A stretch of DNA of 64,000 nucleotides, from contig OZ296656.1 in assembly GCA_965655095.1 (NCBI GenBank), positions 71,796,001 to 71,860,000 of the forward strand, in the 5' to 3' direction. This DNA is from Haplodiscus bocki. Its lineage: Eukaryota. The notes below the pieces were generated by a model. That model made no database searches and was not told where the DNA came from. It worked only from the letters and a program-made list of their open reading frames with translations. This document shows, in pieces, positions 1,816 through 53,315 of this stretch (positions are counted from its first letter, which is position 1; each line of letters starts with the position of its first letter). Made by a program: the position numbers and the translations under genes.

Positions 1816-1924
1816 TGTTTTAATATAGCATGAAGTCAAACAGTATCCACATAAGCAACAGAATTGCAGACATAGTAGTAGCCTCAAAAACTATCCACAG
1901 ACGTCACATGTAGTCCGAGTTGTA

Positions 1925-10495: not shown

Positions 10496-10567
10496 GTGTG
10501 TTTGTTTATTTTAACTTATAAAAAACTTATTAAACTTATTGAAAAACTTATTAAATAGTTTCATATC

Positions 10568-11433
10568 ATGAATGCTCGAACAATGAACACCAGACGGGGG
10601 ATCAGTGAAAGTGGACCCTCCCAGTGCTCCAAATGTTCGACAGATGTGAATGAGACGGACAACTGTATCCTGTGTGACAAGTGTGGATGCTGGATTCACG
10701 TCCGATGTACCAGCATACCCGCTGAAGCACTGAATGTCTTGGAACTTGATGGTGTCTTCTGGTTATGCGAGCCCTGCAGCAAGACCATGAAGAAGCTGAC
10801 AAAATTGAACACCTCACGCCGAATTCTGAGCAGAAGTGGAAGTGAGCCCGACTGAGATAAAGACTGCGATCTCCAATTTACAAGCTAAATCCCCTTCTGT
10901 AAATTTATCACCTGAAAACAATTCTAAACACTCCGACGTTGAACTAAATAGCAAACTAGATATGGAATTTACTATTTCTGCTGTACCTAAGTATGTCAGT
11001 CCTAATATGAATACGAAACCAAAATACGGTGATGTTGTGATGTATGAGAACGAAAATGTTGGTGAAATACTCAAAAGTCTGGGTGACGATAAATCATCTA
11101 TTACCAATATCCGTCGTTTGGGGAAATTTAATCTTGATAACCACATACGTCGATCTTTACTTGTTACCTTCAATAATCCTTGGGTTGTTCATCCCGTACA
11201 TATCGATAGAAAGAATACGAGACAAACAAAACGAATGTCTCTCTTAATCGATCTCTATCGAAAGAAGATCAACAAAAAAGATTGTCTTAGCAAACGATGG
11301 AAATTGATCTGCGAAGAGAACTATGATAAGTCAAAATTTAGAATAATCAATCTGAAGTGATTCTACAACGGTAACGAAATCTCGACGAAGGAAAACACAA
11401 GCCTAATTGTTGTGATAAACTTATTAAACAGAT
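10568..11433 (+). mobile_element. 5' part (PHD-finger ORF1, frameshifted) of an older CR1/L2-superfamily LINE
   Basis: CSKC..CILCDKCGCWIHVRC..WLCEPC PHD finger. After a frameshift near 10850 come IRRLGKF..RSLLVTF motifs typical of CR1-type ORF1. Confidence 0.8.
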
Positions 11434-11550
11434 TTTTCCCTTCCTTTTTCACCGCGTTGTTTGTTTATAGATAAATTGCGCGCTAGAGCCTGGACTTATT
11501 CTTCTATCCCAAGTCCCGTCGCTCTAGCCGTAGACGGGTGAAGTCTGCTT

Positions 11551-12162
11551 ATGGTGTTTAGACTGATTGGTGCCAGCTCTTTGAGAAACTGCAAGACAGC
11601 TTTTCGATCAGAGACTCTTTTCAGTCGCATCGACGCCGAGGGAGGCCTTTCCTTCAACCCTCGAAGCAAGTGCAAACTTGCCCAAGAGTGGCTCCAAGGA
11701 GAACTTACTGGAGCAAGTGGATTGGTTATCTGGCACGACGCTGTCAATAATACAATCAACAGCCACGAAAAAAACGACTTCCAACCGTGTCCCATTGTAG
11801 AGTTTATCCAAACCTTAGTATCGCTGAGATCACGCATCACAGCAATAGTTTACATACAACGAAACGACACTGATAACGTGTTGACAGCACTCAACGAAAC
11901 CGGCATTGACATCATCGACATCGAATCGAAGGTTGACTTGACGGACAAAGAATTCGAATCTGACCTCCGTAAAGTCCATCCAAAAGTTACAACGGAATTG
12001 AAGGTATTGCAAGCCGTTACAGACCAGATTAAAGAAGTGCTATCATCCAACATCACAGTTGCCCAACAGGTGAAGAAGAAAAAGAACAACCGGCCAAATC
12101 AGCGACAGCGACAACGCTTCCAGAAAAGAAACGCAGGTAGTCCTCTAATTCGAGCTCTCTGA
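11551..12162 (+). CDS. SGNH/GDSL esterase-like protein with basic C-terminal tail (LINE accessory ORF)
   Basis: Intact ATG-TGA ORF, 203 aa. LIGASS (block I-like), GGLS (II), VIWHDAVNN (III), DLRKVHP (V), then KKKKNNRPNQRQRQRFQKR. Confidence 0.6.
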   Translation: MVFRLIGASSLRNCKTAFRSETLFSRIDAEGGLSFNPRSKCKLAQEWLQGELTGASGLVIWHDAVNNTINSHEKNDFQPCPIVEFIQTLVSLRSRITAIVYIQRNDTDNVLTALNETGIDIIDIESKVDLTDKEFESDLRKVHPKVTTELKVLQAVTDQIKEVLSSNITVAQQVKKKKNNRPNQRQRQRFQKRNAGSPLIRAL

Positions 12163-12283
12163 TCTCCTCAGTGCCTCGAGAGAAGGATCTCTGTTGGCGC
12201 GAGCTTGCTCAGTGCCTCGGGTCTGATCTCTGTTGGCGCGAGCTTGCTCAGTGCCTCGGGTTCCTGATCTCTGTTGGCGCGAG
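12159..12283 (+). repeat. ~39-bp tandem repeat (~3 units) between the esterase ORF and ORF1
   Basis: Unit gatctctgttggcgcgagcttgctcagtgcctcgggt(t/c)ct read directly. Confidence 0.92.
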
Positions 12284-12318
12284 AAGAATCTCCTAGCAAT
12301 TCTGACCTCCGCCATAAT

Positions 12319-13356
12319 ATGCCGAACATCATGAGTCATAACCACAATACGAGATTGACTTCGACCAAGTACCCTTGTGGTGCATGCGCAGGTGAATGTA
12401 AAGACGGCTCGGTAGCATGTATTCTGTGCAATTCATGGTACCACGCAGGTAACTGCTCAGGATTACCATCAAGCATCTTGATGGCCATGTCAAAAACCTC
12501 GGGACTGGTGTGGCTGTGCAAATCTTGCGAAACGAAGGGTAAGGAACGGTTGTTGAAAGACGAGAAGGAAATTGACGCTAAGGTGCAGGAAACGATTGTT
12601 GCAAAGGTCATGGAAGACAAACTCGATGAGATTAGAGACACCAAAACGAAGCTGATTAAAGATAAACTGTCACTTTTCCAACAAAACCTTGAAGCTAAAC
12701 TTGAAAACTTACTTTCAGAAGACCGAAAAAGCGCACAGAGCTGGTCCGAAGTTACCCAACGGAATGCTCCCTTGGTGAAAGGTTTGGGAACCATCATGAA
12801 AGAGACGATTGAGAACGAAAGACTGGAACAAGCAGATCAAGAAAAACGGGAAAAAAACGTCATCCTTCATCGAGTACATGAGAGTGACAAATCGGAGGCC
12901 AGTGCGAGAGCTGGAGATGACATCAAGTTTTTCAAACAGCTCACCGAAGACGTACTAGGTATTGGTGACCTCAAACCAACAAAAGCAATCAGACTTGGAG
13001 CAAAGAAAACATCAAAGGACAGCGACGGTACTACTGCAGAACGAGTGAGTTCAAGACCACTGAAGATTGTATTGCCTTCCAAGGAGGATCGGGACTTACT
13101 TTTCAGAAATTTGAGAAAGTTGAGAGCAGCAGACAAATCATTCGCTTCAATCAGCGTTTCATACGACCTCTCGCAAGATCTGAGGAAGCAGCTCAAGTTG
13201 AAAATTGAAGAGGCCAAAAACAAAGATGGAGAGAATGCAAAAAACTACATGTACAGAATGAGAGGACCTCCGAACAGACTAGAGGTACAGAAACTGAAGC
13301 GGAAAGTGAAACTGTCAGCGGAGAGCCTAGACGATGCCTTCGTCGTCAATCCCTGA
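12319..13356 (+). CDS. LINE ORF1p: PHD finger, coiled coil, RRM-like region
   Basis: CGAC..CILCNSWYHAGNC..WLCKSC, REKNVILHRVHES, IRLG, RPLKI, SYDL. Confidence 0.88.
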   Translation: MPNIMSHNHNTRLTSTKYPCGACAGECKDGSVACILCNSWYHAGNCSGLPSSILMAMSKTSGLVWLCKSCETKGKERLLKDEKEIDAKVQETIVAKVMEDKLDEIRDTKTKLIKDKLSLFQQNLEAKLENLLSEDRKSAQSWSEVTQRNAPLVKGLGTIMKETIENERLEQADQEKREKNVILHRVHESDKSEASARAGDDIKFFKQLTEDVLGIGDLKPTKAIRLGAKKTSKDSDGTTAERVSSRPLKIVLPSKEDRDLLFRNLRKLRAADKSFASISVSYDLSQDLRKQLKLKIEEAKNKDGENAKNYMYRMRGPPNRLEVQKLKRKVKLSAESLDDAFVVNP

Positions 13357-16203
13357 AGTTTCTTTTTTCCAATACTGATGCGATGACAAACAAAAAGGAG
13401 GAAATCAGTGCAAGGCTAGTAAGTGAGAAGCCGGATGTTTTCGGCCTGATGGAAATAAAACCAAAAAAGCATGGCTTTGTGTTGGAGGAAGCAGATATCG
13501 CTTTTGAAGGATATGACGCATTCTACAGCAAACAAATTAGCAACAAGGAACATCGAGGTACAATAGTATACGTTAGGCAGGATATTGGGCTTCAGTCTAG
13601 TCGAGTTGAGATCAACGGATGCCCAGAAGACACTATTCTTGTTCAACTTTGTAATGGAAAAAAAGAAAAAATCTTGTTCGGGTGCGTCTATCGTCACTGG
13701 AATTCAGATACCCAAGAGCAACAGGCCTTAATGAACACTCTTAGAGCTGTATCACACATGAATTTCACGCACGAAGTTATCGTAGGAGATTTCAACTTCC
13801 CGAAAATTGATTGGTCCTTGAACTGGACACCGCTTAGTGAGAACAGTAACGAGCACTCATTCACTGAATTGGTAAGGGACTGCTTCTGGCACCAACACGT
13901 CCAATTTGCAACAAGAGGCAGAGGATCTGATGACCCTAGCATTCTTGATCTTGTCTTCACGGATGCAGATACAGAGATCGACGACATGGAGTGCCAAGCT
14001 CCTTTTGGAAAGAGTGACCATTCGGTGATTTCTTTCGAACTCTCCCAGGTGGAAAGAACACGCTGCAAAAAAGGAACAAGATGGAAGTATGCTAAGGGAG
14101 ACTACGAAAGCATGCGCGAGGTACTGTCAAACAACCACTGGGTTGATGTACTCTCTACTGCCCCAAGTGTCAACGAAGCATGGAATCTTGTAAAAGAAAG
14201 AATCAGCGCAGCAGTAGAAAAGTTTGTGCCAAAAGCCATTTCCGGATCCACAAAACAGTTTTCGGTTCCCTTGGATAAAGACCTCTTACAACAAATCCGA
14301 AAGAAGAACAGCCTCTGGAGAAAATACCTCAGAGTCAAAACAAAAACAGCTTACAACGAGTTCTGCAGAGCGAGAAATTACATCCGGAGTCGAACAAGGT
14401 CCAAAGCTAGAGAAATTGAAGATGAAATTGCCCGGGAAGCAAAACGAAACCCGAAGAGATTTTGGACCTTTGTGAACTCAAAAGTTAAAGCCAGAACTGG
14501 CATAAGTGACCTCGTCTTGGAAGACGGAGAGGTAGTATCCTCAGACACCAGAAAGGCTGAAGTCTTGAATACCTACTTCAGCAGTGTTTTTGTAGAAGAG
14601 AAAACCCCTCCCCCGGAAATTGACGAATTTGTTGTCGACTCATACATTGAGGAGCCCCTCATAACTGAATCAGCCATCAGAAAGAAGTTGGCAGAATTAA
14701 ACAGGACAAAGTCACCGGGCTTTGACGAAATCCATCCTCATGTGCTTGCCGAACTGTCAGAAGTTTTGACTGAACCACTGCAGATCATTTTTTCAAGCAC
14801 CATTGCTGAAAGCGAGCTACCCGAGGACTGGAAGGAGGCGAGGGTGACAGCACTCTTCAAGAAAGGTGACAAAAAGAAAGTGGAGAACTATCGACCGGTC
14901 AGCCTAACATGCATCGCATGTAAAGTACTAGAAAGCATTATCAGAGATGATATCATTTCCCACATGACGTCGAACAACTTGATTTCAGATAGACAATATG
15001 GCTCCGTGAAAGGAAGATCGACGAGTCTACAATTGCTGAAAGTCTTAGAAGAGTGGACACAGATTCTTGATAGAGGAGGAGGCATTGACTGCGTTTATTG
15101 TGACTTCCAAAATGCCTTCGATAAGGTTCCATATAGGAGACTGATGGCAAAGATCTGGTCATACGGAATTCGAGGAAAGTTATACCGATGGATAGAAACT
15201 CTCCTAACAAACAGGAAGCAACATGTGGCTGTCAACGGTCAAAAATCTAGTCTTGAGTGGAGTCCCGCAAGGAAGCGTTCTAGGGCCACTTCTTTTTGTG
15301 ATCTTCATAAACGACCTACCTGCAGCTGTTGAGAATGAAGTATGGATGTTCGCAGATGATACAAAGATCTACCAAGAGGTGAACTGTAAGGAAGATGGTG
15401 AATCGCTTCAAAATGACCTCTACAGGCTTGAAGATTGGAGCAAAAAATGGCTACTGCCGTTTCATCCAAAAAAGGCAAAGCTCCTAAAGTTTGGAAGAGC
15501 CAAGAAGCTTGAACGAGAGTACTACGCCGAGCGAGGGAAACTACTATCGATCTCAAGCGATAATACTGAGACGGACTTAGGAGTGACATTTGACTCAGAC
15601 CTGAAATTCGAAAAACACATTGTGAATAAAGTCAATAAAGCCAATCGATTGGTTGGCCTCATCAAACGGACCTTTCAATTGGATATTTTGAAGTTCAGGT
15701 TCCTCTTCCGAGGCATTGTTAGACCGCACCTAGAGTACGCCACTTCTGTATGGAACCCCACGTCAGTCAAACTCCAAAACCTCATCGAGAATGTGCAAAG
15801 AAGGGCTTCAAAACGTGTACATGAGTTAAAAGACCTATCTTACGAAGAGAGACTGAAAAAACTTGACATGCCAACCTTAGCATATAGACGCTTGAGAGGA
15901 GATATGATTGAAGTCTTCAAAATGCTTACCAACAACTCTGGGTACGATCAATCTGTGACGACAAATCTGCTGACCCGTGAGGGGCACAATAGGAGCAGAG
16001 GCCACGCATTGAAGCTGAAAATGAATAAAAGTCGAACTAGCCTTAGGAAGCATTTCTTCACACAGAGGGTGGTGAAAGAGTGGAACAACCTCCCTAGAGA
16101 GGTTATCGAATCCGTTAACACCACTACATTCAAATCAAGGCTGGACAAATGCTGGGAGAATAGAAAATTCATGTTGAGACCAACTCAGATGACGTTGCAG
16201 TGA
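13350..16203 (+). pseudogene. LINE ORF2p (AP endonuclease + reverse transcriptase), one frameshift near 15255
   Basis: LFSNTDAMTNK, VGDFNFP, SDH, KSPGFDEI, NYRPVSLT, DFQNAFDKV, GVPQGSVLGP, FADD, WNNLP. ORF-track pieces 13383-15332 and 15223-16203. Confidence 0.93.
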
Positions 16204-16288
16204 GGTCCAGTAACACTTGCAGTGAAAGAAGTCACTAGCACTGGGAGCTGTGAATAGAGGACTACCTGCTCACAGTACTGAACAGATG

Positions 16289-19170
16289 AACAGATGAAAA
16301 CTTTCACAACCAATGACTATGCATTCTGCAACCAGACGTGTTATTTCTCGCTTTCAATGTTGGAGATTTACAAAACCATGATAAAACTTACTTTTGCCAA
16401 CAAAGTAAACCAGCTTCCACTTATATTTTCAATGATTACTGAAAATTGGTTGTACAGCACTGTTTTTGATTCGGAGTTCTTTATCCACGTTTACTTTTTT
16501 ACAGATCAGAAAGAGAAGCAAATAATGCAAAAAAAAGTAAACATGGGGGAGTCTTGATTGGTATACGATCTGATCTAGTTTCACAATTAGTTCCAAATGA
16601 AGACGCACCAGTTGGCTTGCATAGTGACATTGGGAGAGCGATGTGTCCTTTTAGCCTGCTTGTGTAATCCACCATAGGGTAGCCCGTATTTCATGGCACA
16701 ATCGGCTTTAAAGTCACTACTCAGGAACATTCTTGAGTACTCTTCACAAGTTAATTCCACTATTGTGTACGGAGATTTCAATTAACCAGTCATTACTTGG
16801 AAAGATTACTCCTCCAGCATTCCAGATAACCAATGTTTCATTGATTTGATGGTGGACAACGAGTTGAATCGGGTAATAGATTTTCCCACCGCTGCTACCG
16901 CTATATTGGATCTTATCTTCGTTAGCAAAGACCTCGAAGTTACTTCATGTAAGCTTGGTGGCGATCAAATGAACTATTCATCCAACCACTACAGCATTTT
17001 AACTGAAATTAAAATTCAGGATTTTAAGTCACTTTAATTTAGACCGGGAAAGCCAACCGCTATCTTCAGTTGTTGCAATGGGGGTTCGATGAGCTTAATT
17101 CCCTTATCGAGGAAAAACCGTTCTCAGGGGTAAGTTGGAGCAATGTAAACGTTCTTATTCAACAATGGATTAATTGGATTAAATTGTTCGTTTTCCAGAC
17201 AGATCCCCTTAGGAAGAAGCATCGGTTCCATTTGTCGCCTTGGGTTACTCCCTGTACTTCGAATCTAATTAAACTAGAAACGACCAAACGCAATCAAGCT
17301 ATAACCATACGAAAATTCGCTGTCTTCAAAAGTCTTGCGAAGATAGTCCTGAACCAGCTGGAGCAAATTTCGAAACTAAGCTTTCCGACACAAGATCTAC
17401 ATGTCAACTTTTCAAGTACTTTCGAACCTTCAAATCAACTCGTCTTCCTAGTTCAATCTTTCACAGAAATGAAATTGCGACTGATTCAAAATCGCAAAGC
17501 GACCAGTTCTCTAATTTCTTTGCTTCCATTTTTGCCGTATCTACAGACTTCATCCCAATGGAAGAATGCATTTCTGAGAAGCTTTTGCTCGTTTTTAGCG
17601 TCTCTGAAGAGCAAATTCAGCTCATCTGTGAAAATCCTAATATTAAAAAGCGACTGGTCAAGATCAATTACCCGCCATTGAAGAACTATCAGCAAATCTT
17701 TGGCCAAGTTGTTTTACAGAATTAAACAGAGATCTCTTCCCTTATTGTTGGAAGAACTCGATTGTTAGTCCAACTTTCAAAAAAAGGTCGAAATCGAATG
17801 TAGAAAAATATTGAAAAGTCTCTCTCGAGCATCCTATCGAAAATCTTTGAGCGCTGTCTTTTATTGACCTGTACAGTTTTCTGAACCATTCTTCCAATTT
17901 GGATTTCGAAAACAACGTTCTTGCATACTTCAATCACTGATTTTTCTCGACCAAGTGTACAATTCCTTAAACTTTGATGACGAAATTCACGTAGTTTACA
18001 CAGATTACGAGAAAGCTTTTGATAATGTCGATCACGGCATTCTGCTGGAAAAGCTCTACAGAATGAGTATACGAGGAAAAGTATTCAAATTGTTACGCTC
18101 CTACTTAGCCATCAGAACACAGCGTGTTAGAGTTGATGGAACATTTTCACAAGAAGTTCTAGTTACAATTGGCGTACCACAAAGGTCTATCCTTGCCAGT
18201 CTACTCTTCGTTATTTATATCAACGACCTGCCAAACACCTGTGAGTCGTGCCAACCATTGTTATGCGCTGACGATGCAAAATTCATTTCGATGAATAAGT
18301 CTACCTGGCAATTCCAAATAGACTTATCACGTATTAAAAGATAGAGTGACCGATACAAATTACCACTCAACATAAGAAATTGCTCTCACACTGACTTTGG
18401 CAGTAGCGACAAAACGTTTTTCGTCTCCGGTGATGAAATGAAGAAATAGATCGTGCAAAACGATTTCAATTTTTTGATCTCTCATGGCCTCAAGTGAACT
18501 GATCATATAAAAGCAGCTTGCAGCAAAGCACCCAGTGTTCTCTTCTTTTTGAAAGGAAGTTCTCCCCTCGTTACAATGCCAGCTAAGTTGAACCTATTTA
18601 AATCAATGATTGTTTCCGCCCTAATTTACGCAAGCACTTGTTGGTATGCTAATGTCGACAGATTAAAAGCCTTGGAATGCGTCCAGAAATGATCTCTGAA
18701 ATGGGTCTGCTGGGAGCAGAAAAGCACCTAGAAAGAACTTCTGTCAAAAGTAGAAATTTTACCGCTCCTCTTATACATGCAATTACAGGATCTGCTCACT
18801 CTTTCTAAGTGTACGACGAGTTTTTATGACTACGATTTTAATTCATACATTTGTTTGAGGAACTGCCCTGGAGAAATTCGATCTTCTAGTGAAGTGAGAA
18901 TCGACTATCGCAAACCTCGAAAACGCCAGTATGAGCAAAACTTCTATCGTGCAGGTGCCCTCGTGAATAGGCTGCCGACAACCATTGATATCTAACCCTA
19001 CTGGTCTCAAGCAACGTCTACTTCGTGCTCCTTGGTCATTCTTCAGCGACATACAATGAACTCGTCAGTGCTAATTGGAGAATGTAGTTAGCCGGCTTTC
19101 AACGACACGACCATAAAGGAAGACGATCCCGGCGCCAGAAGATTCTGGCCAAATCCCAATTACTACTACT
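16289..19170 (+). mobile_element. 3' part (decayed APE-RT ORF2, 3' stem-loop, (TAC)n tail) of the same older LINE
   Basis: ITENWL, GDFN, ILDLIF, YTDYEKAFDNVDH, GVPQRSILASLLFVIYINDLP and CADD across frameshifts. Hairpin GCCAGA-AGAT-TCTGGC at 19134-19149, then tactactact. Confidence 0.85.
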
Positions 19171-19989
19171 GCATTACATCATAAAACCTTCAGAACCTAC
19201 TTTGCATTGTAATTTTATTGGTGTTTGAGTCAAATGAATCATTTTTGGATTGGAAAGCCATTCCGTTCCGCTCATTGGTGAATATTGGCTTATCATATGG
19301 TACATCTTCGTTCTTTCATGTCGTTTGCGAGTTCAACCAGTTGTGCTTTCCATTATCGAGTCTGTGACGTTCTAAAGCTTCCGTATAAGACCTTCCTCAA
19401 TTTTTTCCGATTAGCCGTTAATATGTGAGTAGGATTGTTTCCAGTATCTCCCAATCTACTGAAAAAAAAAGTATTCCCTAGCAAGTACATACTTGGGGGT
19501 GGGGGTTTCTGGAGAACACAGAAACTCCCCTGCTGTATAACTCCCCTGGTAGCCTTTTCCAGTTGGGCTGTGTCGATGAAAGGAAGGCGATTTTTGGGTA
19601 CCCTTTTTTAGCATTCGAAAGACATGCCCTAAATATTTCTGGACCAAGTGAAGAATCTCACCCCTAACTACTACTAAGGGGAAATTGTTGACTAGGTTAG
19701 TTGAAGCAAACAATACATGAGCATTCATTCTTCGTATCAGGGCTATTCACCTAAGAGCATCACTTGTTACTAGTGACGCTAGGTATGTATCCCCAAGAGT
19801 AGCGAGAGACGGTGCAGTTGTGCTGAAGGCACCGAATCCAGTACTCATCAACTATAGGCATACACGGTTCCCTCAGAAAAAGAAATTGATTAATACAGAA
19901 GAGAAAACAATCAGAGCTATCCAACTGAGTATCAGTTGTTACTACTGACGCCAACTACGTATCCCAGAGAGTAGCGCGAGCATGCATCG

Positions 19990-22100
19990 TCAAGAGGAAA
20001 CAGCTATCACGGGAAAGCACAACGTAAGGTGGCCCCTTCGCAATGGCGATGTACGGCATGGCAATTCCCCACTAATTGAAAAAATTGAAAACGAACGAAC
20101 CACGCAGATATGGTACGCAGATGACGGATCAGTGGGAGGGAAGTTGAAAAGTCCTTGACAACGTCATCAAATATGGAAAACACTCTGGCTATGGTGTGAA
20201 ACTTGGCCTCAGTAGAAAACACACGAAGCCAGCTGATTGTCCTGGCGCTGACAAAATATGGCTTAAACCTGAAGAAGTCAGGTTTTTGAGAGGGATTGCT
20301 TTTACGATATGTGACCGAGTCCTGAAAGGCACCTAAAGTGTGACCACCATTATTTTAAGATTGCCCATACACTGCATTGTGCCGAAACTGGATGTACACA
20401 CATGCTTCAAACGTTCCAATGGTAATGAGGCACAATTTAGCAGAAGTCTTGGATGAAGTGTGCTAAGATGTCGAAATCAAACTTCTTCCGCAACCATTGC
20501 AAGTCGAAAATTTTGACAAGTCAGTCACAGCCGAAGATGAAGAACATCGCCTAGACACTAAAGCAAATGGTCTATAGCGGCACCGTTTTAGACGATACAC
20601 GATGTTCTTTGATGTAAAGATCTTCAATCCGTTTGAAGAACAGTCAAAAATATTGTCAGATCACTGCATATTTACAACAAAGCAGGTCAAATTTATTACG
20701 GACGGCTTTCGTTCTTTTTCTATGCGTCTCCAGCTCCATCAAATTGAAGACCACTAGCAGTGTGCAAGCTTTCAATTTTTCTGGTTAAATCGTTAAACTT
20801 CTCGAGTAAGGAGTCTCGCTTACCACGCTGACATTCCCAAGTGTGCGCTCTCACATCCCGCGCATAAAATGGCAAAAAGATAAACTTAAGCTGATGAAGT
20901 AATAAAAATAGCATGCAAGATGAATTCTGATCGCACCCGGCAATAGTTTTTTTCTGAGACTTCCCATGGATTCTTCCATTAGTATTCTTTCGAGACGAGA
21001 GAGTGTTGTTTTCCGTAATTCCAGGCGAAGGTAAATGTTGAATTCAAATTTTCCTTTTTCGATGTTTTGGCAATCCCTTATTTTTCCATCGAATATATGA
21101 CGCCAATGCCTTTCTCTACGCCCCTGGATTTTTAATAAGAATCAACGGAAGTTTCTGTTGTGTTTTTGGCTGGGTGATGGAAAACTTTTGACACGGTTCG
21201 ATTATTTCAAGCGATGGTTGCAAAAAGTTTTGAAGACAAGGATTTTTTTGAAAGAAAATGGCACGAAAACGTTCCTCCACACCTATAGTTGTCATTGTGA
21301 GAAAAACCTGATGTTCTGGCAGTCTTCTTGTTTCATTTTGTGCACGATGCTTTGCAATGGAAACCTCAGAAGAAAGAACACGAAGCCAGCTGGTTGTCCT
21401 GGCGCTGACAAAATATAGCTTTAACCTAAAGTCAGGTTTTTGAGAAGCATTGATTTTACGATATGTGACTGAGTCCGGAAAGGCACCTAAAGTGTGACCA
21501 CCATTATTTTAAGATTGCCCATACACTGCATTGTGCCAAAAGTGGATGTACACACATGCTTCAAACGTTCCAATGGTAATCAGGGACAATTTAGCAGAAG
21601 TCTTGGATGAAGTATGCTAAGATGTCGAAATCAAACTTCTTCCGCAACCATTGCAAGTCGAAAATTTTGACAAGTCAGTCACAGCCGAAGATGAAGAACA
21701 TCGCCTAGACACTAAAGCAAATGGTCTATAGCGGCACCGTTTTATACGATACACGATGTTCTTTGATGTAAAGATCTTCAATCCGTTTGAAGAAGTCAAA
21801 AATATTGTCAGATCACTTCATATATCGAACACTTGAAAAATTGAAATACCAGCAACGACTTTTGGATATCAAACGAAGCAGTTTTTGCGCTAATATTCTG
21901 CACAGGTGATGCTGCGCCGGGTGCAACAAAAGCAATGCATGATCCCGTGGTGAAGATAAGAGAAGACGATCGGAATCAGTGACTTATGAACGAAAATGAG
22001 CTTTGCTCTGCTCAGTAGAGCGACACTTTGTTGGAGGGGTTTTAGATGGATGAAAAGGATCGAATCGGCAGAAAATCTGGGTGGAGCGATCGTAGAAAAG
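19990..22100 (+). mobile_element. Degraded, internally deleted CRE-clade (RLE-type) non-LTR retrotransposon pieces; 20221-20670 duplicated at 21378-21820
   Basis: GPFAMAMYG and IWYADDG (RT), then HTLHC, AEVLDEVC.DVEI..QPLQ, RLDTKANGL and FFDVKIFNP (CCHC/RLE region typical of CRE). Confidence 0.65.
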
Positions 22101-23103
22101 AAGAGGGCGCGAAGCCAAGTCCAATTTTTTTAAAATTCAAAACCTCCTCATGGGGTGCAGTGAATGCTTGCTGCCTCCAACTTGTGTTTATATGAACAAT
22201 GGAATCGCTCCATCACACTCTATAACAGGGGTACGGCATGCAGCATATAAGGCAACCGCATCTTGAAGTCTTCCCTATAATATAATAGACTTCTTCAACA
22301 ACTCCCAGACTACACTCCTTTCAAAGATCACATATCTTTTGAGCGCAGCTGACGTCTATGCAAGTCATCGTTTTTAATTTGCTTGACATACCGACTTGCA
22401 CGGTCCCCTTAGAGATAGAAATTGGTTAATTAGGAAGAGAAGTTAATTAGAGCTTTTCAACTAAGAGTATAGCTTGTTATTATTAACGCCACTTACATAT
22501 CCCCAAGAGTAGCGAGAGAATGCATGCGGACGATGTATTGGTGCTGTAGGCACGACTAAATACTGATCCACTACATGTGGCGTTTATAGTCTGCGGTGAA
22601 GTTTGTATTCATTGTCACTTTTGCCGGTAAGGGCATTGTTCACTTAGTCTTTCGTTTTTCTCTGGTGAAGACTACTGGTGTTTGATAATTGTTTCCATCA
22701 ACGATAAATTCATGAACTTTTGTTTTACGGTGCGTGATTATGTTTTCTCTCTGGCATGGTCGTCATCATTGTGAACACAACCATTTTTTATTACTTTGAC
22801 ATTTCGGTGTTGTGGAATAATGCTGAAAACATAATTGATAGATTATATAAGGAACAAATTATGAAAGCAACTTGAATACGGGCAATTATTTGACGTTACT
22901 TCCAGCAGAAAATCCATTATTGTAATCGGAAGCTTCCCCCAATTGCTTTTGTACTATACTAATTTCATAGTTCTTAATGCTGATCATGGTTGCTGTCTTA
23001 ATTTAATTTCACCAAAAACTTACTTCAACTTGTTATTTCTCGAGTGTTGCTAAGAACCGCCTCGTGTCTGTGTGACACTTGCTATAGGAAATGTCATGAA
23101 CAC

Positions 23104-24723
23104 TGTGAGCAGCCTCGCCTGGGTCTGAATCAACTGAGTGATGGAACTGATAGACTGAGGAAGTTACTTCAGGATGAGAATCATTCTGGGAACGATCCCA
23201 ATTTGGTTGCTGTTTTTTTACGTCTGTGTTCCACAACGTTTCCGGAGTGTGTCCGTACCCGTGGATTCAGAGAAATTCGTCTAGTTTGGACAGAGCACCC
23301 AAAAATCGGGACTCTGTCCTGCTAAATTCATGGGACAGCTTTTTAGTGACCCTGCCTTCAATCTCCTCGGAGACCTGTATTATGTTTTCCTCGTTGATTC
23401 TATAAACGCACGCGACTGGCCCTTCCAAGGATGTTCCTCTTGTGTTTCCCCTGCAACGGCTGCCAACTTTTGCTTGTTTCTGAATGTCGCCATCTTTTGA
23501 AGGGAAAATGTTAAAAGTAGTGAAGACGAATTATTTTTTGTACTTTCTAAGCAAATTTAAGAGTACAACACAATGTAGCTCTCCGAAATAAAAACTAGTG
23601 TCATTATTGAAAGTCAACTGAATAATAAAATGAAAATAAGATTCTTGATTATTAGTACTTTCGTTTCTATTTGTACCTTTTCCTTGGTGGAAAACATAAT
23701 TGTTTACACGCCAAGTCAAGGTACAAATAGGAAGAATACTTTAGTTATATTATCTATGAAGAGAAAATGCCGACTCTGCTGGGAAATGAACGCATTTCCA
23801 TCCATTTGTTCCCCTCATAGGCCGCGTCTTTTCCATCTTTCGGTGGAAAATGTACGGTCTTAATCCATGACAAATGGACATCAAAGTGCTTATTCCGGCG
23901 CCGACTCAATGAATATCGGTATAAACAACAGATCAGAGGGATTTTCCATAATTGGAAACTAGTAAAAAAATTCATGGATAAAACAAAATTCTCAGAATAA
24001 AAGTTCAGCATTTCTTGCCTAAATGTGTAACAAATACATGTCTGCTTAGTGCGCTTTATTTAGGACGGAAATTGGAGTGGAACTAATAGTGCTCCTAGTC
24101 TGTTCCTCATTTCTACTGCTCAATTTTTTGTTTCTACTGGGATGTTCCGGAACGGTTCCGTATTCGCTTGTAGCACTGCTTGTGGCAGTGCTGCTGAATG
24201 AGTGAAATGAGTGATTACGGAACTGTTCCGTAATTGGCCAAAACGGCCCAGCATCATAGCACAGCAGTTGGAATGATTTTAGCGACGTCACCAGATTGGT
24301 AGCGACGGAACACGTACGGAACAAATATTCACTTTTGATGTCACTTTTTGTACGCTATAGTTGCTTTTAATACATCTCATTGACAGCGTCAATTTAACTA
24401 ATTTACTGCACTCTAGCTCTTGATAAGGTAGATTTACATTAAGTAAACGCGTAAATTAATATAAATATAGCACTTTTTAATTTCTAATTAACTCTTGAGT
24501 GAATATTTTTTTTGTTCCATAACGGTTCCGACCCAATCTGGATCAGTACACTAGGATGATACGTATATACTACGGATCAGTTACATGACATGAAATTAAT
24601 ATATACATAAAACGTAAAGTTCATTTTTTTATGTAGTCTTATCTACTTAGTTTCTTGACGATCCGGGGATATTCCTTTCTTTCCGCAGCACTTGCCCCTA
24701 GGCTTCGCATATATGCTGCGACA
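23104..24723 (-). mobile_element. Solo Gypsy-type LTR (1620 bp) carrying a decayed Gag-N-terminal ORF at 23493-23104
   Basis: Minus strand TGTCGCAG...GCTCACA. 5-bp TSD AACAC at 23099-23103 and 24724-24728. Same TGTCGCAG start as the LTRs at 44999 and 60555. Confidence 0.85.
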
Positions 24724-26039
24724 AACACCTATACGGTGTTACTTCCGTCCGTAATCAGTTGCACACTGCAAGCAACTTCTCGCTGGAACTTTTAAGGTGT
24801 GAGCACACACGTCCTGCATGTGGATTGGATAGATTGAGGAAGTTAAAGTCCAAACTAAGTGCAAGTGAGTACAGGAAACTCACGCAAAAATTGGCAGTTT
24901 TTGTGTTTAACCAATTTTGTTTAATTTCGATAACCAAATCGACATTTAGCTCTAAATTTAAATGAAGTATTACAAACGTACGTTTTTCGAAATGTTTGCG
25001 TTTTATGCTGTGAAAAAACCCAATTTCTGCTCGTTTGATGTACGAATTAGCTGGTTTTGGACGTCCCGATCTTTTAATTTTTTGCCTGCTAACTCAGCTT
25101 TTAGTTGAAAACGCTTCAAAAGCCAATAATATAGAACACATTTAGCAAGTTCCATAACCTAATAGGCACTGTGTCAGGAGGGGATCATTTTTAGTTTGTG
25201 TTCTTAAGTCGTTTAACACATATATTTTGCTGTGTTTTTCAACTTTGGTGACTTTTGCCTTCCAAATCAACTTTTTATCAACAAATAAATGACGTTCGGT
25301 AATCACGCACATGCTTCTGCTCTGGAAGCAAACTTCAACAGAGTTTTGTGGATTCCTTTTTGTCAAATTGTCTACTTTCCGAGTCAAGCACGGGTCACTT
25401 AAGCCCTAGTTTGCCTATATTTTCTTGTTCAGTTTCTCAGTGGCTGTGTTGTATTGGCAGGTGTTTACGAAGCACGCTTCCGCCTCTGCGTATAATATGC
25501 AATTATAGTAGTTTCTTTTCAAGTACACTTTTTTTGGGAGGCCTCCAAAGATGGTGACAGCTTTCGAGAATTTTCCTTAGCTCTAGGTACCCAATAACCA
25601 TTGTTCTTGATTCATGGTGTGTTTGAGCATTTCCAAACTATACATGCTAGTCAAGGTCTCGCATATGATGCAGATTTTTTCAGCTCAAAGGCCCAGCTCC
25701 TGTTCGCCAACTCATGAACTTGTAATAATTTGCCACCGCCTATATATTTTCTCTGACAGAAGCATTAAAATTGTGAGCTGGGCCATACTTTATAAGATTG
25801 ACCACTCGGTAATTTGGAGGAACGCTCGAAACATAAGTGATAGTGAAGCAGCAAATTATGAAACCGATGTTCATGGACAGATGTCGAATGTGAATTCAAG
25901 TAAAAAAATTTTATTGTAATTGGAAAGTTTTTGAGGTATGACTTTCAATATGTCACAAATATCATGACGAATGCGCAAGCAAGTGTTATTACAGAGACTT
26001 GAATTTCCGATTTGTTTACCCTGACAATTTCCTAGGTTT

Positions 26040-26127
26040 TGATCAAATAGGTGGGAGTGGCCTAGGCTGGAACCTGGAACCGTTCGCGCTGCAGTCGCAT
26101 ATTCTGCTGACTGTGCCATTGTGTCGC
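26040..26127 (-). mobile_element. tRNA-derived SINE-like head
   Basis: Minus strand TGGCACAGTCAG (A-box-like) ... GGTTCCAGCC (B-box-like) at tRNA spacing; degenerate. Confidence 0.4.
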
Positions 26128-26249
26128 TTGAGAATCAGTGTTTTTGTTTAGAATATCAAGCGAATTAAATATTATTGTGTTTATTGCGCGTAAATGTGCA
26201 AGAAATAACTCAGTTTCTGTACACTTGTTATCAGTAGTATTCATAGTAT

Positions 26250-26680
26250 CGTGACCCCTTCGAAAATCAGTTATATTTGGTCGATTTGTTAGTTAGTATT
26301 CCGTCGGCGCAGGTGTTGCGAAGCACAGCTTCGTCTCTGTGTTAGTTATTCTGTCGTGATATGTCCCTTCAAGAAAGGCACGGTTGTAGAAAACTTGTAA
26401 TCTTCTCTTTGTCCTGCTTTGGGTTCCAGGTTTCACACCTGTACAATAGGACAGACATTACAGTCGCATTGAACATTGAACACTCGCAATTTAATTTAAT
26501 TTTTTTGGCTGATATTTATTTTGCATGAGAGGAGCCGCTGATAATAACCAATTTTTCGATATTCGGTTGAGAATTCCTTGCGTACCGCTACCATCGCTGG
26601 CGGTGATGCTTCCAAGGAAGTGGAAGGATTTCAAATATTCGGTTTCTTCATTGCTATTGCGTAGTGGTACGGGGTTGGCG
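26250..26680 (-). mobile_element. RTE-clade LINE ORF2 C-terminal fragment
   Basis: FHFLGSITASDG..ILNRISK and FNATVMSVLLYRCETW (YLGS and LLYGCETW motifs). Confidence 0.7.
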
Positions 26681-27128
26681 CAGGTAACCATATTTCGCAT
26701 TTGTCGCAGTGGAGTTTTAATCAAATCGTTTTCGATATGTTATCGATACTATTGATCATTTCTTGCATGTTGGGCGCCGAGTCAGACAGGAGGGCAATGT
26801 CACGTGCATGAGAGATTTCTTGGGTTCCAGTCTGACTGCAACATGATACCCGACTGCAACAGCTTGCTTGAGAACGCAGTCGATTGCGATGATAAAGAAA
26901 TTATTTATAAATTACGCACCACACAAATAAATTATATTGTGAAAGTGATACACAGTGAAAAATTTGAAAATTGTTCAGTAAATGAGAGCTCTGTGATGCG
27001 ATTAAGATAGGAATTTCGCAACCCGTTTGAATGCAATTTTGCATGATTTGTTTTAACTTGCAGCAGATTCAATTTCAACTGGTGTGGTTTATGAAAGACG
27101 TATTTTCACGAAAATGTTTGTTGCACAG

Positions 27129-44998: not shown

Positions 44999-46779
44999 TG
45001 TCGCAGGCTGCCGCCTGTGACGGCATGGTCTACTCCGTTAATTACAATGGACAAAACGAGGACACACGGGGACATACTCTGCCCCTATTTGAAGATCAAA
45101 CTTATTAAACCCTCGTTAAAGAACTCGCTGGATAAAAATTCCCCCCCATTTTGAAGATATATATTTATATATTTATATGCTATTAAATATACTTATATGA
45201 TCCTACCTATATTTACGTTTTTTTGTGCAAAATCCATACAATTAGCAAAGAAGCTTGTATCATGAGAGAAAGGTTATGAACAAATGCTTATAGCGCTCAA
45301 TTCATTTGAACTCCTATACTTAAATTTGATTGGTCAAGGCAAGTATTCGTATCAAATCTTGACCAAACAACAGCGCGGCTGGAGTGTAGTCAAAATTGTT
45401 CACCAGGACCTATTTTTGATCACTTTGCTCAAAGCGAGTGGTCGCTTTTAAACAAAAGGCGAACTACGGCCAAATGAAATCAGAAGGGGCGAAGTATGAC
45501 CATATTCAAGTAAAAGACGTTGCTATGTACTTATATAAGCATATAATTATTTGATTATGTTATATTATATCACCTAGTGCTAAATATTATTAAATCCCGA
45601 GTGAAAATCATTACCTGGTCAAAAGACGGTCACAGTGTCCATGTTTGACCACTATATTTTAGCTCAAAGCTAACACCTGTGCATGAAATTCAATATCAAT
45701 ATCCTTGTCATATCTACTACATTATAACCATAAATGACCACCCATGATAGGAATTACGCATGCAAACATGATTTTATTAACTTTGAACATTTATCCAGAT
45801 TCCATAACCATATTTTTGTTAGTCATGATTTTTCGGTATTTTCCTTTGAAGCTTGTTTTGTTACTATCCTTAAATTGATGTCACGATGATGATATGTAAG
45901 ACTCGGGTTAAGCTCTTTGATGTGTTGATTAAAATTAGAATGACGATCATGACGTCAGTAGATAGAGCCACCCAATTGGTCGACGAATGTCAGGTCAAAC
46001 GAAGGAAAGGGTGATCCACTACTAACAAAACCAACACCAGAGAAAAAAATTGCCATCCTGAAAAACAGTTCATTGCAGCAATTATTCAAACTGATAGGGA
46101 TTAATCGTGGATTATTTAAATCCCCAGCAAGCATTGTTTTGTAAAATTATCATTGAGTTCTTACGTTGCTGTTAATTGTATAATCTCAGGAACAGTTCAG
46201 TTATTAAAACAAACATGGTTTCCACTCGCAAGAGAAAGCAGTCAAACAAAAGGCTCCTCAGCCAATTAAATGACTTTGATCAAGACATGATCATTGGCAA
46301 TGCCGCTAGTGAAAGACAAGAAAATACTGTAGTCAATGAAGGTACTAATGACCGGGATTTTACTGTTGGTACTTCTAATGATAGTTCGATCGTTAATGGA
46401 AATGCAATGAGTGTGAAAACTTTGGAAAGGTGTTTTAATGGAAGGATCGACAGAGAAATGAGCAATTTTGTTGATACGGTTGAAGATAGGATACAGAATG
46501 CAATTTTGACCGCTATTGAAAATATAGTTGCTCCTAAAATTGAACTAGCAATCAGGTCAATAAATGCATCTTCTGGACGGTATGCGACCAGTGTGTCTGC
46601 AAATTCAGAACGTAGGGAACACGTTGGGATTAGTACCTCTTTTGAAAACGCATCTGGAAACAACGATACATTAGGTGTATTAAATGTAAATGATGAGACT
46701 CGACAAAACATTCCGGACGAGGTAAGTGAATTGTTGGTCTCAGAAACACGTTTTTACTGGCAACCACACACTCATCACA
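44999..46779 (+). repeat. 5' LTR (1781 bp) of the Gypsy element
   Basis: TGTCGCAG...CATCACA, immediately followed by a TGG-starting primer-binding site. Direct repeat of 60555-62337. Confidence 0.88.
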
Positions 46780-47927
46780 TGGTGACAGGACAAGCAGCCC
46801 AAACAAATCAATTCCCAGAGTTTATTACAGGACGTATTTTAACACCACGCAACCCACCATCACATCAACATCAGAACCTGTCAACACAAGTATCACAAGA
46901 CAACAATTTACCAGTGGTCGAACAAACTTCAAGAAATCAAAACTCAGACGCAAGCAATTCCATTAACCACCTAGTTGATGCAATTGCTGGAATTGCAGCC
47001 CAACAACCACCACCAGCAGCCACAATGCTCAAACCCGTATCCACAAATACACTAATTTTGGATGGCAAAAATGAGAAATTCGAACTCTATGAAGACCTAT
47101 TTCACACAATGCTCAAAATGCAACCGGAAATGACAGAAGCTATGAAAATTAACCATTTTCACGCCCATTTACGAAAAGAAGCACTTCAAACATTCAGAAA
47201 CATAAGTGCATTAAACAGGAAAACTCTCGATGACGTCCTAATTGTATTTCGACGCAAATATGTTAAACCAGAATCTCAAGCTACAGCTAAACACAAATGG
47301 CACAAACTCACATTCGATCTCAACACGAAATCACTTCCCGATTTCTTAGAAGAACTCAACGAATGTGCCGAAAGAACGTTCGGTGACAACGCCCAACACA
47401 TGATTGACAGTCTACTCTACGCGAAATTGCCACCTCATTTGAAACGATCACTCAACTTAGTCTATCTGGAAAATGGCACATACGACCAAATAGTCGCACA
47501 TCTCGAAAAAGAATCAGAACTGAGTGGTTTAGAAAACGATGGGGAGCTGACAATACCCACAATGCCAGCCGTACCCCCAAATGATAATCAACAAAACACT
47601 GAACAAACAAAAGTAATATGCCACTATTGTAAAAAGCCAGGCCACGTAATCTGAGAGTGCCGCAAAAGGATGAGAAAGGAACAAGAACAAAGAAATGATC
47701 CTCCAAATCAAAACATATAACCTTCGACATCCAAAAGATTTCCACCTTGTCTTCATTGTCAACGGACAAACCACCCTCCAGAAAACAGTTGGAGCGGTCC
47801 CAACGCAGCGAATAGACCCAAGCGGTTTAAACAAGAATATCACCCAGAAAATTGAAATGACGGGCAAGAACAACGAAACTTGACCCATTCAGGACCTTCA
47901 TCAATTCTTAAAAACTCTTCAAACTAA
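46215..47927 (+). pseudogene. gag: gag (starts inside the LTR; two CCHC knuckles; premature stops at 47652, 47718, 47853)
   Basis: Single frame 46215-47927. DGKNEKFELYEDLF..LRKEALQTF capsid-like region. CHYCKKPGHVI*EC and CLHCQRTNH knuckles. Confidence 0.85.
46780..46790 (+). promoter_or_regulatory. Primer-binding site TGGTGACAG(GA), tRNA-Leu-type by resemblance
   Basis: Abuts the LTR CA end, where identity with the downstream LTR copy stops. The tRNA assignment is inference. Confidence 0.7.
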
Positions 47928-50900
47928 AAAAGCCACGACTCCAATGGGCAGATTACACATCAGTGAGACAATACGTTATATCTGACCCACCCACCATAGT
48001 ATACCACTCTCATCAAACGTCGAACACAGGAATTCCATCAGTAGTCTGGCAGCAGCAAATGGAAAAAGCCTACATTCGAAGATATAATAATATGCACATA
48101 ATCCATAAAAACTTCCCAACATACGAATACGACTACACAGACAACTTTGACACTCAATTTAGACCCCTTCCAGAAGTCGTTGCATACGACGCATATTTCG
48201 TTGACTCTCAATATGGATTTGACCCCTATTGGGATGAAGAAATATACGACCAAGACAAATTGGAGTACAAGGATACTTACAACAAACCTAACAACCAAGT
48301 TGAAAGTGATGACTTAATTACGGATGCACACGTATCAGACGCACTACGATATGCATTGATAGATTTGTGGACAGTAAACCCACATTTACCTGATACTTCA
48401 ACATTACCAAACTTTCCGCCTAGACCACAAAATCAACAAAGGCAAACAGCAGTCATTGACGACCAAATTTTACCACAGCTCCAGGTAACACCAGACGGTT
48501 TCACGAGGTTTCTCCCGCTTTCAACAAATTTGCCATTAGAGAATAAGCGAAAAATGCTTTACTTTCCAATGGCTTTCGGGGAGTTAAATATTGACGGGCC
48601 CATAGATACGGGTGCTTTGTCAAGCGCCATTCCGGAAGCCGACTTACGCAAAATCGCAAAATCCGATTACTGGCTCCACACACAATTTTAAATGAAGGCC
48701 CACCACTTGAGTTCCAAATTAAGGTTGCCAATGGACAGTTAGAAGCACCTATTGCAACAGTAGAATTGCAATTCGAAGTCGGTGACGTTACATTCAGAGA
48801 AAAGTTCATAGTCATGACAAATCTCACAAGCCCTTTGATCGGTCTTTCATTCCTACAACGCAACAGTACCATACTCGATATGCGTCAAGGAGTCCTGAAC
48901 TTTCCCTTCTTTTCATCGAAATTGAAAAATGAAGACCGGACATACCCAAATGTCATTGAACCTATACTAGACCCAGTAGAAACCACACTACAGCCGGGAA
49001 AAAGAACCACAATTTGGGTAAAGTCACAGATCTATACAGATAACGAATCGACAGGAATAATTCAACCCTCGCCACTTCTAGAGAACGACGAAGACCTTCT
49101 CATCTGTCTAGCTCTTTCATCAATCCAAAATTACAAACATATGGTCCAAATTAGCATTTTTCTAGACCACCCTTACAACCTAAAGAAAGGAACGCACATT
49201 GCGAATTTCTCAATATTAACTTCTGAACAAACAAAACACATTCGACCAGTCAACCCTACCTCAGTGAGGCACCTTCTGAACAACAGTCATGACGACGCTA
49301 TTCATTACATAAACAGCCTTCTGAAGACATCGAAAACTGACGAAGTCAATGAGACCTACTGGTTCCCAACACCACAATATTCGGGCAATGAAAAGGAACA
49401 CACGCCCATTCAATCACGTATTCTCAATGAATTACGGGAACTAGAAAAATTAGAAAAATTAAATGCATTAGAAAATACCAGCTCTCGAAACCAATTTCTA
49501 TCCAATTTCGATTGGACAAGTTCTACTTTACAACCGGAAGCCAAACAAGCCGTTGAAAATCTACTTGTGGATTTTCACGACATTTTTGCGCGGCACCGAT
49601 TTGACATCGGAATCAATACAGACTTCAAAGTACAACTCACACCGTTAGACAACAGGCCTGCTTATAGTCAAAGCTTTCATGCGCCGATCAACCTCAAGGA
49701 CAACACCCTCCTGGAACTAGCCCTATTACACAAGTATGGAATCATAACAACACTACCCTTCAGCAAATATGCTAGTCCAATTTTCGCACAAAGGAAACCA
49801 AATGGAAAGCAACGCCTTTTGGTTGACCTCCGCAAAATTAATACACTTATTGCAGATGATTACATCAACAACAATCATCCGGTCAGCACACTAACGGATG
49901 CAGCACAGCATATGGCTGGGAAAAACTTGTTCTGCAAACTCGATTATTCCCAGGCATATCACTGCCTTCAGATGGCTGACCAGCAATCAATCGAACTCCT
50001 TGCATTCAACTTTGCAAGTAGAACATTCGCGTACCGAAGATTGGCACAAGGACTTAGCCGTTCCCTATCGGCATTCTCGAGCTTCATACTTCAATACCTC
50101 GATCCAGTCATCAAAGCCGACCAGTGCGCACAATACGTCGACGATATTGGCATAGCCGCCAATACCCCGGAACAATTGATCAAAAATCTACAAGCAGTTT
50201 TCCAGTGTCTACGGAAAGCTGGTCTCAAACTCAGCATGGCCAAATGCCATTTTGGAGTACAAGAAGTAGATTTTCTTTGGACGAACAATAACAACCAATG
50301 GGGTTGCCCCTCAAAAACAAGAGATTGCCAAATTCCTCGAAAAAGTCAAATTTCCACGATCCAAAAAAGCACTTCAACGATATATTGGCTTTTTGAATTA
50401 TTACGGAAATTACATACCCAGACTGGCAGAACGACTCACACCGTTCTTCCAACTACTCAAAACAACTGACGCCAAAACCAAAATTCCGATTGCCCCTGAT
50501 ATCATGAAAGACTTCAGGGAAATAAACGAAGCTCTAGACCGATGTTGCCAGCTGGCATTACGTCAACCATTACCTGGTAAACAACTGGTCTTCATGACTG
50601 ATGCAAGCTTTCAGGCAGCTGGTTATGCAGTCTTAATAGAAGATGATCCCAACCAGAAGTACACCTCAACACGCAAAACTTACGCTCCCATAGCTTATGG
50701 CTCAAAAACATTCTCACCATCCCAAATTAAAATGTCTATTTACGCAAAAGAAGTTTTAGCCATTTAGATGGCATTCAAAGACTTTGGACATAAATTTTGG
50801 GGAGCCACCAAACCAGTGATTATCATGACAGATAGCAAATCGGTCACCAGATTCTTCCAAACAAAAATGATTCCTCCACCTCTACGGAAGCCCTGTGATT

Positions 50901-53113: not shown

Positions 53114-53315
53114 TGTGTGTAAAACTTTATTCTAGCCCCCTTTGTGTGGCATTTCTATTCTTTAATTCTATCTTTTGCACACACATCATTTAAAGCTTTT
53201 CTTTTTCTTTTTGGGGTATACACAAATTACCAATGACATCAAAAAAGCGGAAGTTACTCAACAAAGCAACAGAAGACTAATTAATAAAGCATAGTACAAC
53301 AACTTTAATTAAAAC

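What the first reader, a model, noticed from the sequence alone, without database searches (positions are those of the whole stretch)
23104..23493. A second, diverged LTR family encodes a homologous peptide at the same LTR position
Seen: the solo LTR in the SNIP1 intron has a decayed ORF (MATFRNKQKL...) ending at the LTR CA. Its segment IEGRVTKKLSHEFSRTESRFLGALSKLDEFL(L)NP aligns without gaps to FNGRIDREMSNFVDTVEDRIQNAILTAIENIVAP from the 46215 ORF: 8/34 identical with a matching hydrophobic pattern (one frameshift repaired). Both ORFs begin with a basic NLS-like tract and both LTRs start TGTCGCAG, yet the DNA is otherwise not obviously alignable. Inference: an LTR-encoded amphipathic helical domain conserved by selection across the lineage.
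Basis: partly seen in the sequence, partly recalled or inferred. Interest (0 to 1): 0.7.

Follow-up and report, generated by a model that had tools for sequence, protein, structure and literature searches.

The report
Retrotransposon Gag starting inside its LTR
The peptide is the decayed front end of a retrotransposon's capsid (Gag) protein, which in this whole group of elements begins unusually far inside the terminal repeat, so every left-over repeat carries a stub of it.

Summary
23104-24723 is a solo LTR (TG..CA, 5-bp duplication AACAC) of a high-copy Ty3/Gypsy family (B). In full-length relatives its ORF crosses the LTR end and PBS in frame (H|MVTG) and continues into Gag capsid, as the 46215 ORF (family A) does. 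Seven families with 46-85% capsid identity share one layout: basic tip, long helix, disordered spacer, junction after 114-195 codons. Ty1 has about 13. The helix is under purifying selection in replicating lineages (pN 0.08, pS 0.75), not in inserted copies. Held-out profiles recover the same register weakly (p about 0.01), partly through amphipathy, so homology is likely but not proven by sequence alone. New here: both families carry variable tandem PBS-type units in frame. One B subfamily's LTR ends one unit further into gag, and one unit is shared between A and B. This suggests how gag creeps into the LTR. Oligomer state and expression are untested.

The parts
23104..24723 (-). Solo LTR of family B (1620 bp), TGTCGCAG...CA
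   Evidence: collinear with the family-B LTR of L001
23099..23103 (.). Target-site duplication AACAC (left)
24724..24728 (.). Target-site duplication AACAC (right)
23104..23493 (-). Decayed LTR-located N-terminus of gag (about 130 codons), broken near 23,410, 23,270 and 23,240, ending at the LTR CA
23446..23493 (-). Basic N-terminal tract of Gag B
   Evidence: pN 0.12, pS saturated vs L001; 4-7 K/R in the first 15 aa of 8 of 8 representatives
23273..23389 (-). Unbroken part of the long amphipathic helix (39 codons)
   Evidence: pN 0.079, pS 0.75 vs L001; helix 32-76 in a low-confidence model of relative P0268
44999..46779 (+). 5' LTR of the family-A element (1781 bp)
46215..47654 (+). gag ORF of family A (479 aa); first 188 codons lie inside the LTR
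46413..46571 (+). Long helix of Gag A (residues 67-119)
   Evidence: AlphaFold2 block pLDDT 66-82 amid disorder; hydrophobic period 3.83
46780..46790 (+). Primer-binding site TGGTGACAGGA, read in frame as part of H|MVTG
   Evidence: primer tRNA not tested (Leu recalled as likely)
48814..53135 (+). Broken pol of the family-A element, RT before integrase
   Evidence: Pfam RVT_1, Integrase_H2C2, rve
60555..62337 (+). 3' LTR of family A, 96% identical to the 5' LTR; its ORF (61773-62393) runs out into flanking DNA
10496..27128 (+). Host intron (FHA-domain, SNIP1-like gene) that holds the solo LTR

Best explanation
The locus is a solo LTR left by LTR-LTR recombination of a Ty3/Gypsy retrotransposon. 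In this clade gag starts 114-195 codons upstream of the PBS, so 22-32% of the LTR codes for the Gag N-terminus: a basic tip, a 45-50 residue amphipathic helix and a disordered spacer. SHOWN: boundaries, in-frame continuation into capsid in relatives, shared junction frame, purifying selection on the helix between subfamilies, decay after insertion. INFERRED: (a) the A and B helices descend from one ancestral helix (about 0.8). (b) Transcription starts upstream of the ATG, so the coding part is R/U5 and is copied to both LTRs with minus-strand strong-stop DNA (follows from the standard mechanism; start site not mapped). (c) The helix most likely works as a Gag-Gag assembly element, a slightly right-handed bundle (period 3.7-3.85 in A, B, C, D), with the basic tip binding nucleic acid, membrane or import factors (about 0.5, no direct test). 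(d) The LTR end moves into gag when priming shifts to a downstream tandem PBS unit (about 0.5). This copy itself is most likely inert.
For: 7 of the 120 listed relatives of the solo peptide reach the capsid motif. Gag A vs Gag B align 8-450/3-413, 31% identical, E 2e-59, with helix and HMVTG junction in register. 10 of 10 representatives (7 families, capsid identity 46-85% between families) have an H/D/N|MVTG-type junction after 114-195 aa. Solo vs L001 helix: differences by codon position 7/1/19, pN 0.079, pS 0.75. Family F (25 sequences below 80% identity): helix columns 0.72-0.85 vs flanks 0.25-0.55; A/C/D helix 0.37-0.47 vs 0.10-0.13 just upstream. B vs F: 0 of 400. Both models show the same order of elements.
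Against: Pairwise A-B not significant; across representatives A/A2/C/D vs B/B2/B3 p runs from 0.013 to 0.77 (1000 shuffles). hmmsearch with the A/C/D helix HMM finds no B sequence. Reversed B sequences score 16-18 against 16-25 forward and 19.5 vs 25.8, so amphipathy explains much of the signal. A/C/D vs F is no better than reversed and lands 15 residues off. F has period 3.57. The family-B model is low confidence (mean pLDDT 40). Capsid fold matches are weak (best E 0.019). For families C, D, E, G the LTR location is inferred from the junction motif only; no DNA was in hand.
Confidence: 0.82

Rival explanations
1. Both peptides are Gag N-termini, but the A and B helices are analogous: long amphipathic helices arise repeatedly upstream of capsid in metaviruses and align by periodicity.
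For: Non-significant pair and HMM tests; high reversed scores and a 15-residue register slip for A/C/D vs F; PMC10516033 section 9 reports dissimilar, helix-plus-disorder N-termini across metaviruses.
Against: The same offset comes from four methods; collinear basic tip, helix and junction in Gags with 55-59% capsid identity; shared period above 3.7.
Confidence: 0.17
2. A free-standing LTR accessory peptide (like MMTV sag or HIV nef in U3, recalled), or a peptide co-opted by the host at this locus.
For: The ORF has its own ATG and is carried by thousands of LTR copies (4223 and 668 protein clusters); selection on the helix.
Against: There is no stop at the LTR end: the frame runs into capsid where internal sequence follows and into unrelated flanking DNA otherwise. 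This copy has three breaks. Inserted family-A LTRs differ by 10 non-synonymous to 1 synonymous change.
Confidence: 0.05
3. Intact solo and 3' LTRs make capsid-less Gag stubs that bind full-length Gag through the helix and damp retrotransposition (copy-number control in the manner of Ty1 p22, recalled). This is an add-on to the best explanation, not true of this broken copy.
For: 99 of 120 listed family-B ORFs and 105 of 120 family-F ORFs keep the start and basic tip; only 7 of 120 B ORFs reach capsid.
Against: No evidence of translation or binding; the hits were selected for resemblance to the query, so intactness is biased.
Confidence: 0.15

Closest known systems
Ty1 (Saccharomyces) GAG start in R-U5
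   Same: Gag start codon upstream of the PBS, so the PBS is translated: 5' UTR nt 1-53, PBS nt 95-104 (PMC5454406, passages seen).
   Different: About 13 codons precede the PBS in Ty1 (a Copia-type element) against 114-195 here, including a selected helical domain; tandem in-frame PBS units do not appear in the passages seen.
Metaviral (Ty3/Gypsy) Gag N-terminal regions; Arc, PEG10/RTL, PNMA ancestors
   Same: Single long helices and disorder upstream of capsid, no retroviral matrix fold (PMC10516033 section 9); best fold matches of the core are PNMA2, Copia, dArc1 and Ty3 capsids (E 0.019 or worse).
   Different: No sequence match of the helix in PDB or Pfam; here the region lies in the LTR and is a live or decayed transposon part, not a domesticated gene.
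Drosophila Gypsy and Ty3 second PBS
   Same: More than one primer-binding sequence per genome (PMC1635307, passages seen).
   Different: [quoted passage not shown]
LTR-encoded genes of retroviruses (MMTV sag, HIV nef; recalled, no call)
   Same: Coding sequence inside an LTR.
   Different: Those are separate genes in U3; this is the start of gag at the U5 end.

Membership tests
Ty3/Gypsy LTR retrotransposon (Metaviridae) | LTR with TG..CA ends and 4-6 bp target duplication | tested here: met
   Solo LTR: TG..CA, AACAC both sides. No matching duplication could be assigned to the family-A element.
Ty3/Gypsy LTR retrotransposon (Metaviridae) | PBS directly after the 5' LTR | tested here: met
   TGGTGACAGGA at 46780 and in L001; primer tRNA identity not tested
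Ty3/Gypsy LTR retrotransposon (Metaviridae) | Polypurine tract before the LTR | tested here: inconclusive
   13/15 purines before the L001 LTR (family B), only 7/15 before 60555 (family A)
Ty3/Gypsy LTR retrotransposon (Metaviridae) | pol order RT before integrase | tested here: met
   RVT_1 at 48814, Integrase_H2C2 at 50991, rve at 51714; family A only
Ty3/Gypsy LTR retrotransposon (Metaviridae) | Gag with two-lobed capsid and CCHC knuckle | tested here: inconclusive
   Retrotrans_gag E 0.0018 below cut-off; top folds are retroelement capsids but E 0.019 or worse; PF00098 on 7 of 120 relatives
Ty3/Gypsy LTR retrotransposon (Metaviridae) | RT phylogeny placing it in a named clade | not tested
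   Only a 10-sequence capsid tree among the families was built
Retroviral matrix domain | Globular four-helix fold with basic patch | tested here: not met
   One short and one long helix in disorder; no PDB sequence match
Separate LTR accessory gene (sag/nef type) | Own stop codon, ORF independent of gag | tested here: not met
   Frame continues through PBS into capsid
Domesticated gag-derived host gene (Arc/PEG10/Fv1 type) | Intact ORF under selection at a fixed locus | tested here: not met
   Three breaks in this copy; thousands of dispersed relatives
Domesticated gag-derived host gene (Arc/PEG10/Fv1 type) | Expression and orthologous copies in other species | not testable with these tools
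   No genome held; no RNA run listed
Right-handed coiled-coil oligomer (VASP-tetramer type, recalled) | Hydrophobic period about 3.67-3.8 | tested here: met
   A 3.83, B 3.73, C 3.81, D 3.85; F 3.57 does not fit; no null was computed
Right-handed coiled-coil oligomer (VASP-tetramer type, recalled) | Self-association | not testable with these tools
   Needs biophysics

The most novel reading that the evidence does not exclude
This clade has a ratchet that feeds gag into the LTR. Short in-frame units (11 or 14 aa), each beginning with a PBS and ending in an LTR-like CA, pile up behind the 5' LTR and are swapped between distant families through their shared PBS. When a downstream unit primes reverse transcription, the LTR grows by one unit and the old PBS decays. 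Over time a whole selected Gag domain came to sit in the LTR, so thousands of solo LTRs are ready-made ORF starts that read into host DNA and may (about 0.15) yield capsid-less Gag stubs that restrain the element.
Probability: 0.45. Interest if true: 0.72.

Novelty: new variant of a known kind. Interest (0 to 1): 0.48.

Why it matters
The peptide itself is ordinary Gag. The architecture is not. A tenfold longer coding stretch in the LTR than Ty1's, conserved over seven families, means each solo LTR carries an ATG and a folded helix that runs into flanking DNA. That is a source of false gene calls (thousands of protein clusters) and possibly of new genes or copy-number control. The tandem PBS units and the subfamily whose LTR ends one unit later offer a directly testable model for how LTR boundaries move and how distant families exchange sequence.

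Tried and rejected
Four-copy complex prediction of the family-A helix (residues 62-119): no answer, score 0.11 against a mark of 0.32, alignment not used; it counts neither way. No RNA holder listed for the solo LTR. ESM Atlas with the B and C N-termini: best scores 0.78, below lead level. Pfam: nothing for the peptide. PDB sequence search of the helix: 0 hits to E 10. No relatives in viral contigs or prokaryote genomes; 1 locus of 117 candidate stretches in JGI metagenomes. No earlier scan findings. Paper searches for gag starting in the LTR or tandem PBS gave 0 papers. One search gave 11 papers (10 listed), one relevant; one search gave 5; one search gave 5 (2 listed; PMC8121366 seen as listing only). 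These are phrase searches of an open-access library, so absence from print is not shown. Supplements (e.g. Figure S8 and Table S3 of PMC10516033) were not read and may bear on how common such helices are. Rejected: a repeat start at 44206 or 44444 as the family-A LTR start (loose ends point to 44999); LTR-end creep in family A (12 of 12 ORFs that leave gag homology do so at the first junction). My unit-parsing pattern failed on 46 of 119 A and 153 of 162 B proteins (mostly ORFs with no gag continuation), so B counts come.

Full report
1. Observation. The window is animal DNA with introns, LINEs and LTR elements. No call names the host (runs are 'organism A'). From memory these Gags resemble those of acoel worms, whose genomes are dominated by LTR elements (PMC9911081, passages seen); this is a lead only. 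The finding lies in a 1620-bp solo LTR, - strand 24723 to 23104, with TG..CA ends and AACAC on both sides, inside one 16.6-kb intron of an FHA-domain gene. An ORF relic starts at 23493 and ends at the terminal CA, with breaks near 23,410, 23,270 and 23,240. Both LTR types start TGTCGCAG. For B this is shown by the duplication and by L001, where the motif follows a purine tract. For A it is shown by 169 contigs with unrelated loose ends before 44999 in run X2. The two LTRs do not align as DNA (best E 0.17). The cited segment is 7/30 identical in the unbroken frame, but the pair is not above chance: p 0.08-0.13 by shuffling, 0.35 over six frames.

2. What it is. The 48-residue unbroken piece has 4223 relatives among 4232 candidates. 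Of the 120 listed, 99 start with the same basic tip and 7 continue into the capsid motif. HMVTG is the LTR's terminal CA plus the PBS TGGTGACAGG read in frame. So both peptides are Gag N-termini. The family-A element has RT before integrase, and its core folds nearest to PNMA2, Copia, dArc1 and Ty3 capsids, though weakly (E 0.019 or worse).

3. The lineage. A search with the capsid core gave 1167 representatives; I fetched 24 of the 150 listed, chosen for long upstream regions. Ten representatives of seven families (46-85% core identity between families) all have an H/D/N|MVTG-type junction after 114-195 residues, and 8 of 8 checked have 4-7 K/R in the first 15 residues. For A and B the LTR location is shown on DNA. 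For F it is supported by 81 of the 91 ORFs with the end motif diverging right after it (29 of 120 lacked the motif). For C, D, E, G it is inferred from the motif. Coding takes 22-32% of the LTR. In Ty1 the AUG follows a 53-nt leader and the PBS is at nt 95-104 (PMC5454406, passages): the same principle, with about 13 codons.

4. Selection. Solo LTR vs L001, helix, 39 codons: differences by codon position 7/1/19, pN 0.079, pS 0.75. In family F (25 of 121 sequences kept below 80% identity) helix columns are 0.72-0.85 identical against 0.41-0.55 before and 0.25-0.36 after. Across A, C, D the helix is 0.37-0.47 against 0.10-0.13 upstream; within A it is 0.84 vs 0.75. These sets were found by similarity, which favours conserved parts. 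After insertion the constraint is gone: the two family-A LTRs differ by 10 non-synonymous and 1 synonymous change, and the solo copy is broken.

5. Are the A and B helices homologous? A, C and D clearly are (p below 0.001). hhalign gives the same register, 2 of 150. A PSSM gives p 0.0005 and 0.0075 for two B Gags but 0.38 for a third and 0.20 for the solo piece. B matches F (0 of 400; 10 of 150). Against this: hmmsearch finds nothing, reversed sequences score almost as well, A/C/D vs F is no better than reversed and slips by 15 residues, and the solo copy read with X at its breaks does not recover the register. With collinearity inside homologous Gags I put homology at about 0.8. AlphaFold2 gives short helix, long helix, disorder, short helix, capsid for both A (helix 67-119, pLDDT 66-82) and B (helix 32-76, low confidence).

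6. How it most likely works. In a full element, transcription from the LTR starts upstream of the ATG (inferred), Gag is translated through the PBS, and the coding U5 is copied to both LTRs. LTR-LTR recombination leaves solo copies whose ORF runs into host DNA. The helix has a hydrophobic period of 3.73-3.85 in A, B, C, D (3.57 in F), which suggests a slightly right-handed bundle that helps Gag assemble (about 0.5, inference). Long helices in disorder upstream of capsid are typical of metaviruses (PMC10516033, section 9), so the domain type is not new.

7. Both families carry tandem in-frame units that each start with a PBS-type MVTG and end in H/D. In A, 70 of 119 proteins showed 1 to 7 junctions, with units mostly of 11 or 14 residues (46 unparsed, 3 with none). 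In one B subfamily (31 of 162 proteins), 4 ORFs leave homology at the first junction, as the window's copy does. Another 22 leave one unit later, nearly all with a decayed first junction (12 of the 22 are from one 90% cluster), 1 leaves two units later, and 4 run on into gag after that unit. The LTR end has therefore shifted by a unit within the reading frame; the direction is inferred from the decayed PBS. Family A shows no shift (12 of 12 at the first junction). The unit core SEEFRNGH-like occurs in 8 of 119 A and 2 of 162 B proteins (4 with a looser pattern). One A-B pair is 14/21 identical there against 28/126 over the LTR-coded part, which points to exchange between families. All of this rests on protein translations; DNA of those copies was not available. 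Drosophila Gypsy has two PBS, but at opposite ends of the RNA (PMC1635307, passages). Phrase searches found no paper on tandem in-frame PBS units or long gag-in-LTR overlaps.

8. Verdict. A real but ordinary relic (solo LTR with a broken Gag N-terminus) that exposes an unusual clade architecture. New variant of a known kind; interest 0.48. The ratchet-and-exchange reading has probability about 0.45 and would merit 0.72.

Noticed in passing
P0011, P0059, P0061, P0104, P0137, P0210, P0217, P0224; window 46768-46800: Variable tandem in-frame PBS-type units behind the LTR end in both families; a B subfamily whose LTR ends one unit later; one unit shared between A and B.
   Followed up: partly
window 44206-44998 vs 59496-60554; L001 4400-4596: The family-A 5' LTR is preceded by a copy of the element's own 3' internal end (with a 270-bp gap), and the L001 LTR has a purine tract before it and PBS-gag after it: head-to-tail, shared-LTR arrangements in both families.
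   Followed up: partly
window 59144-59481: A 70%-identical older copy of the family-A LTR start lies 1.4 kb upstream of the 3' LTR, preceded by GGGAG as in L001's purine tract, while 60555 has no clear purine tract: the LTR's 5' boundary may also have shifted by duplication.
   Followed up: partly
window 53316-57251 (-): Three antisense ORFs (330, 180, 575 aa) inside the family-A element after integrase, with no Pfam match at E 0.001; the longest has a Cys/His zinc-finger-like motif.
   Followed up: no
window 44999-45100 (+); L001 4536-4680: A reading frame runs across the LTR start in both families (S-Q at TGTCGCAG; CxxC follows in L001), so U3 may also hold a coding relic.
   Followed up: no
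window 23494-23520 (-): A pyrimidine run and AG directly before the solo LTR's ATG resemble a splice or trans-splice acceptor; weaker in L001 and not evident in family A.
   Followed up: no
window 628-1818, 5573-6861, 7312-8912: Another repeat set (1007 bp at 96%, 188 bp at 98%, and a 65% diverged copy), possibly a further LTR or split-repeat element.
   Followed up: no
window 12319-16203 (+): A LINE with PHD-finger ORF1 and endonuclease-RT ORF2 in the same host intron.
   Followed up: no
window 20207-20679 and 21364-21831; 44720-44866, 60274-60420, 63631-64000: A 473-bp direct repeat (94%) near the solo LTR, and 28-bp tandem arrays in the element's 3' internal region and at the window end.
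   Followed up: no
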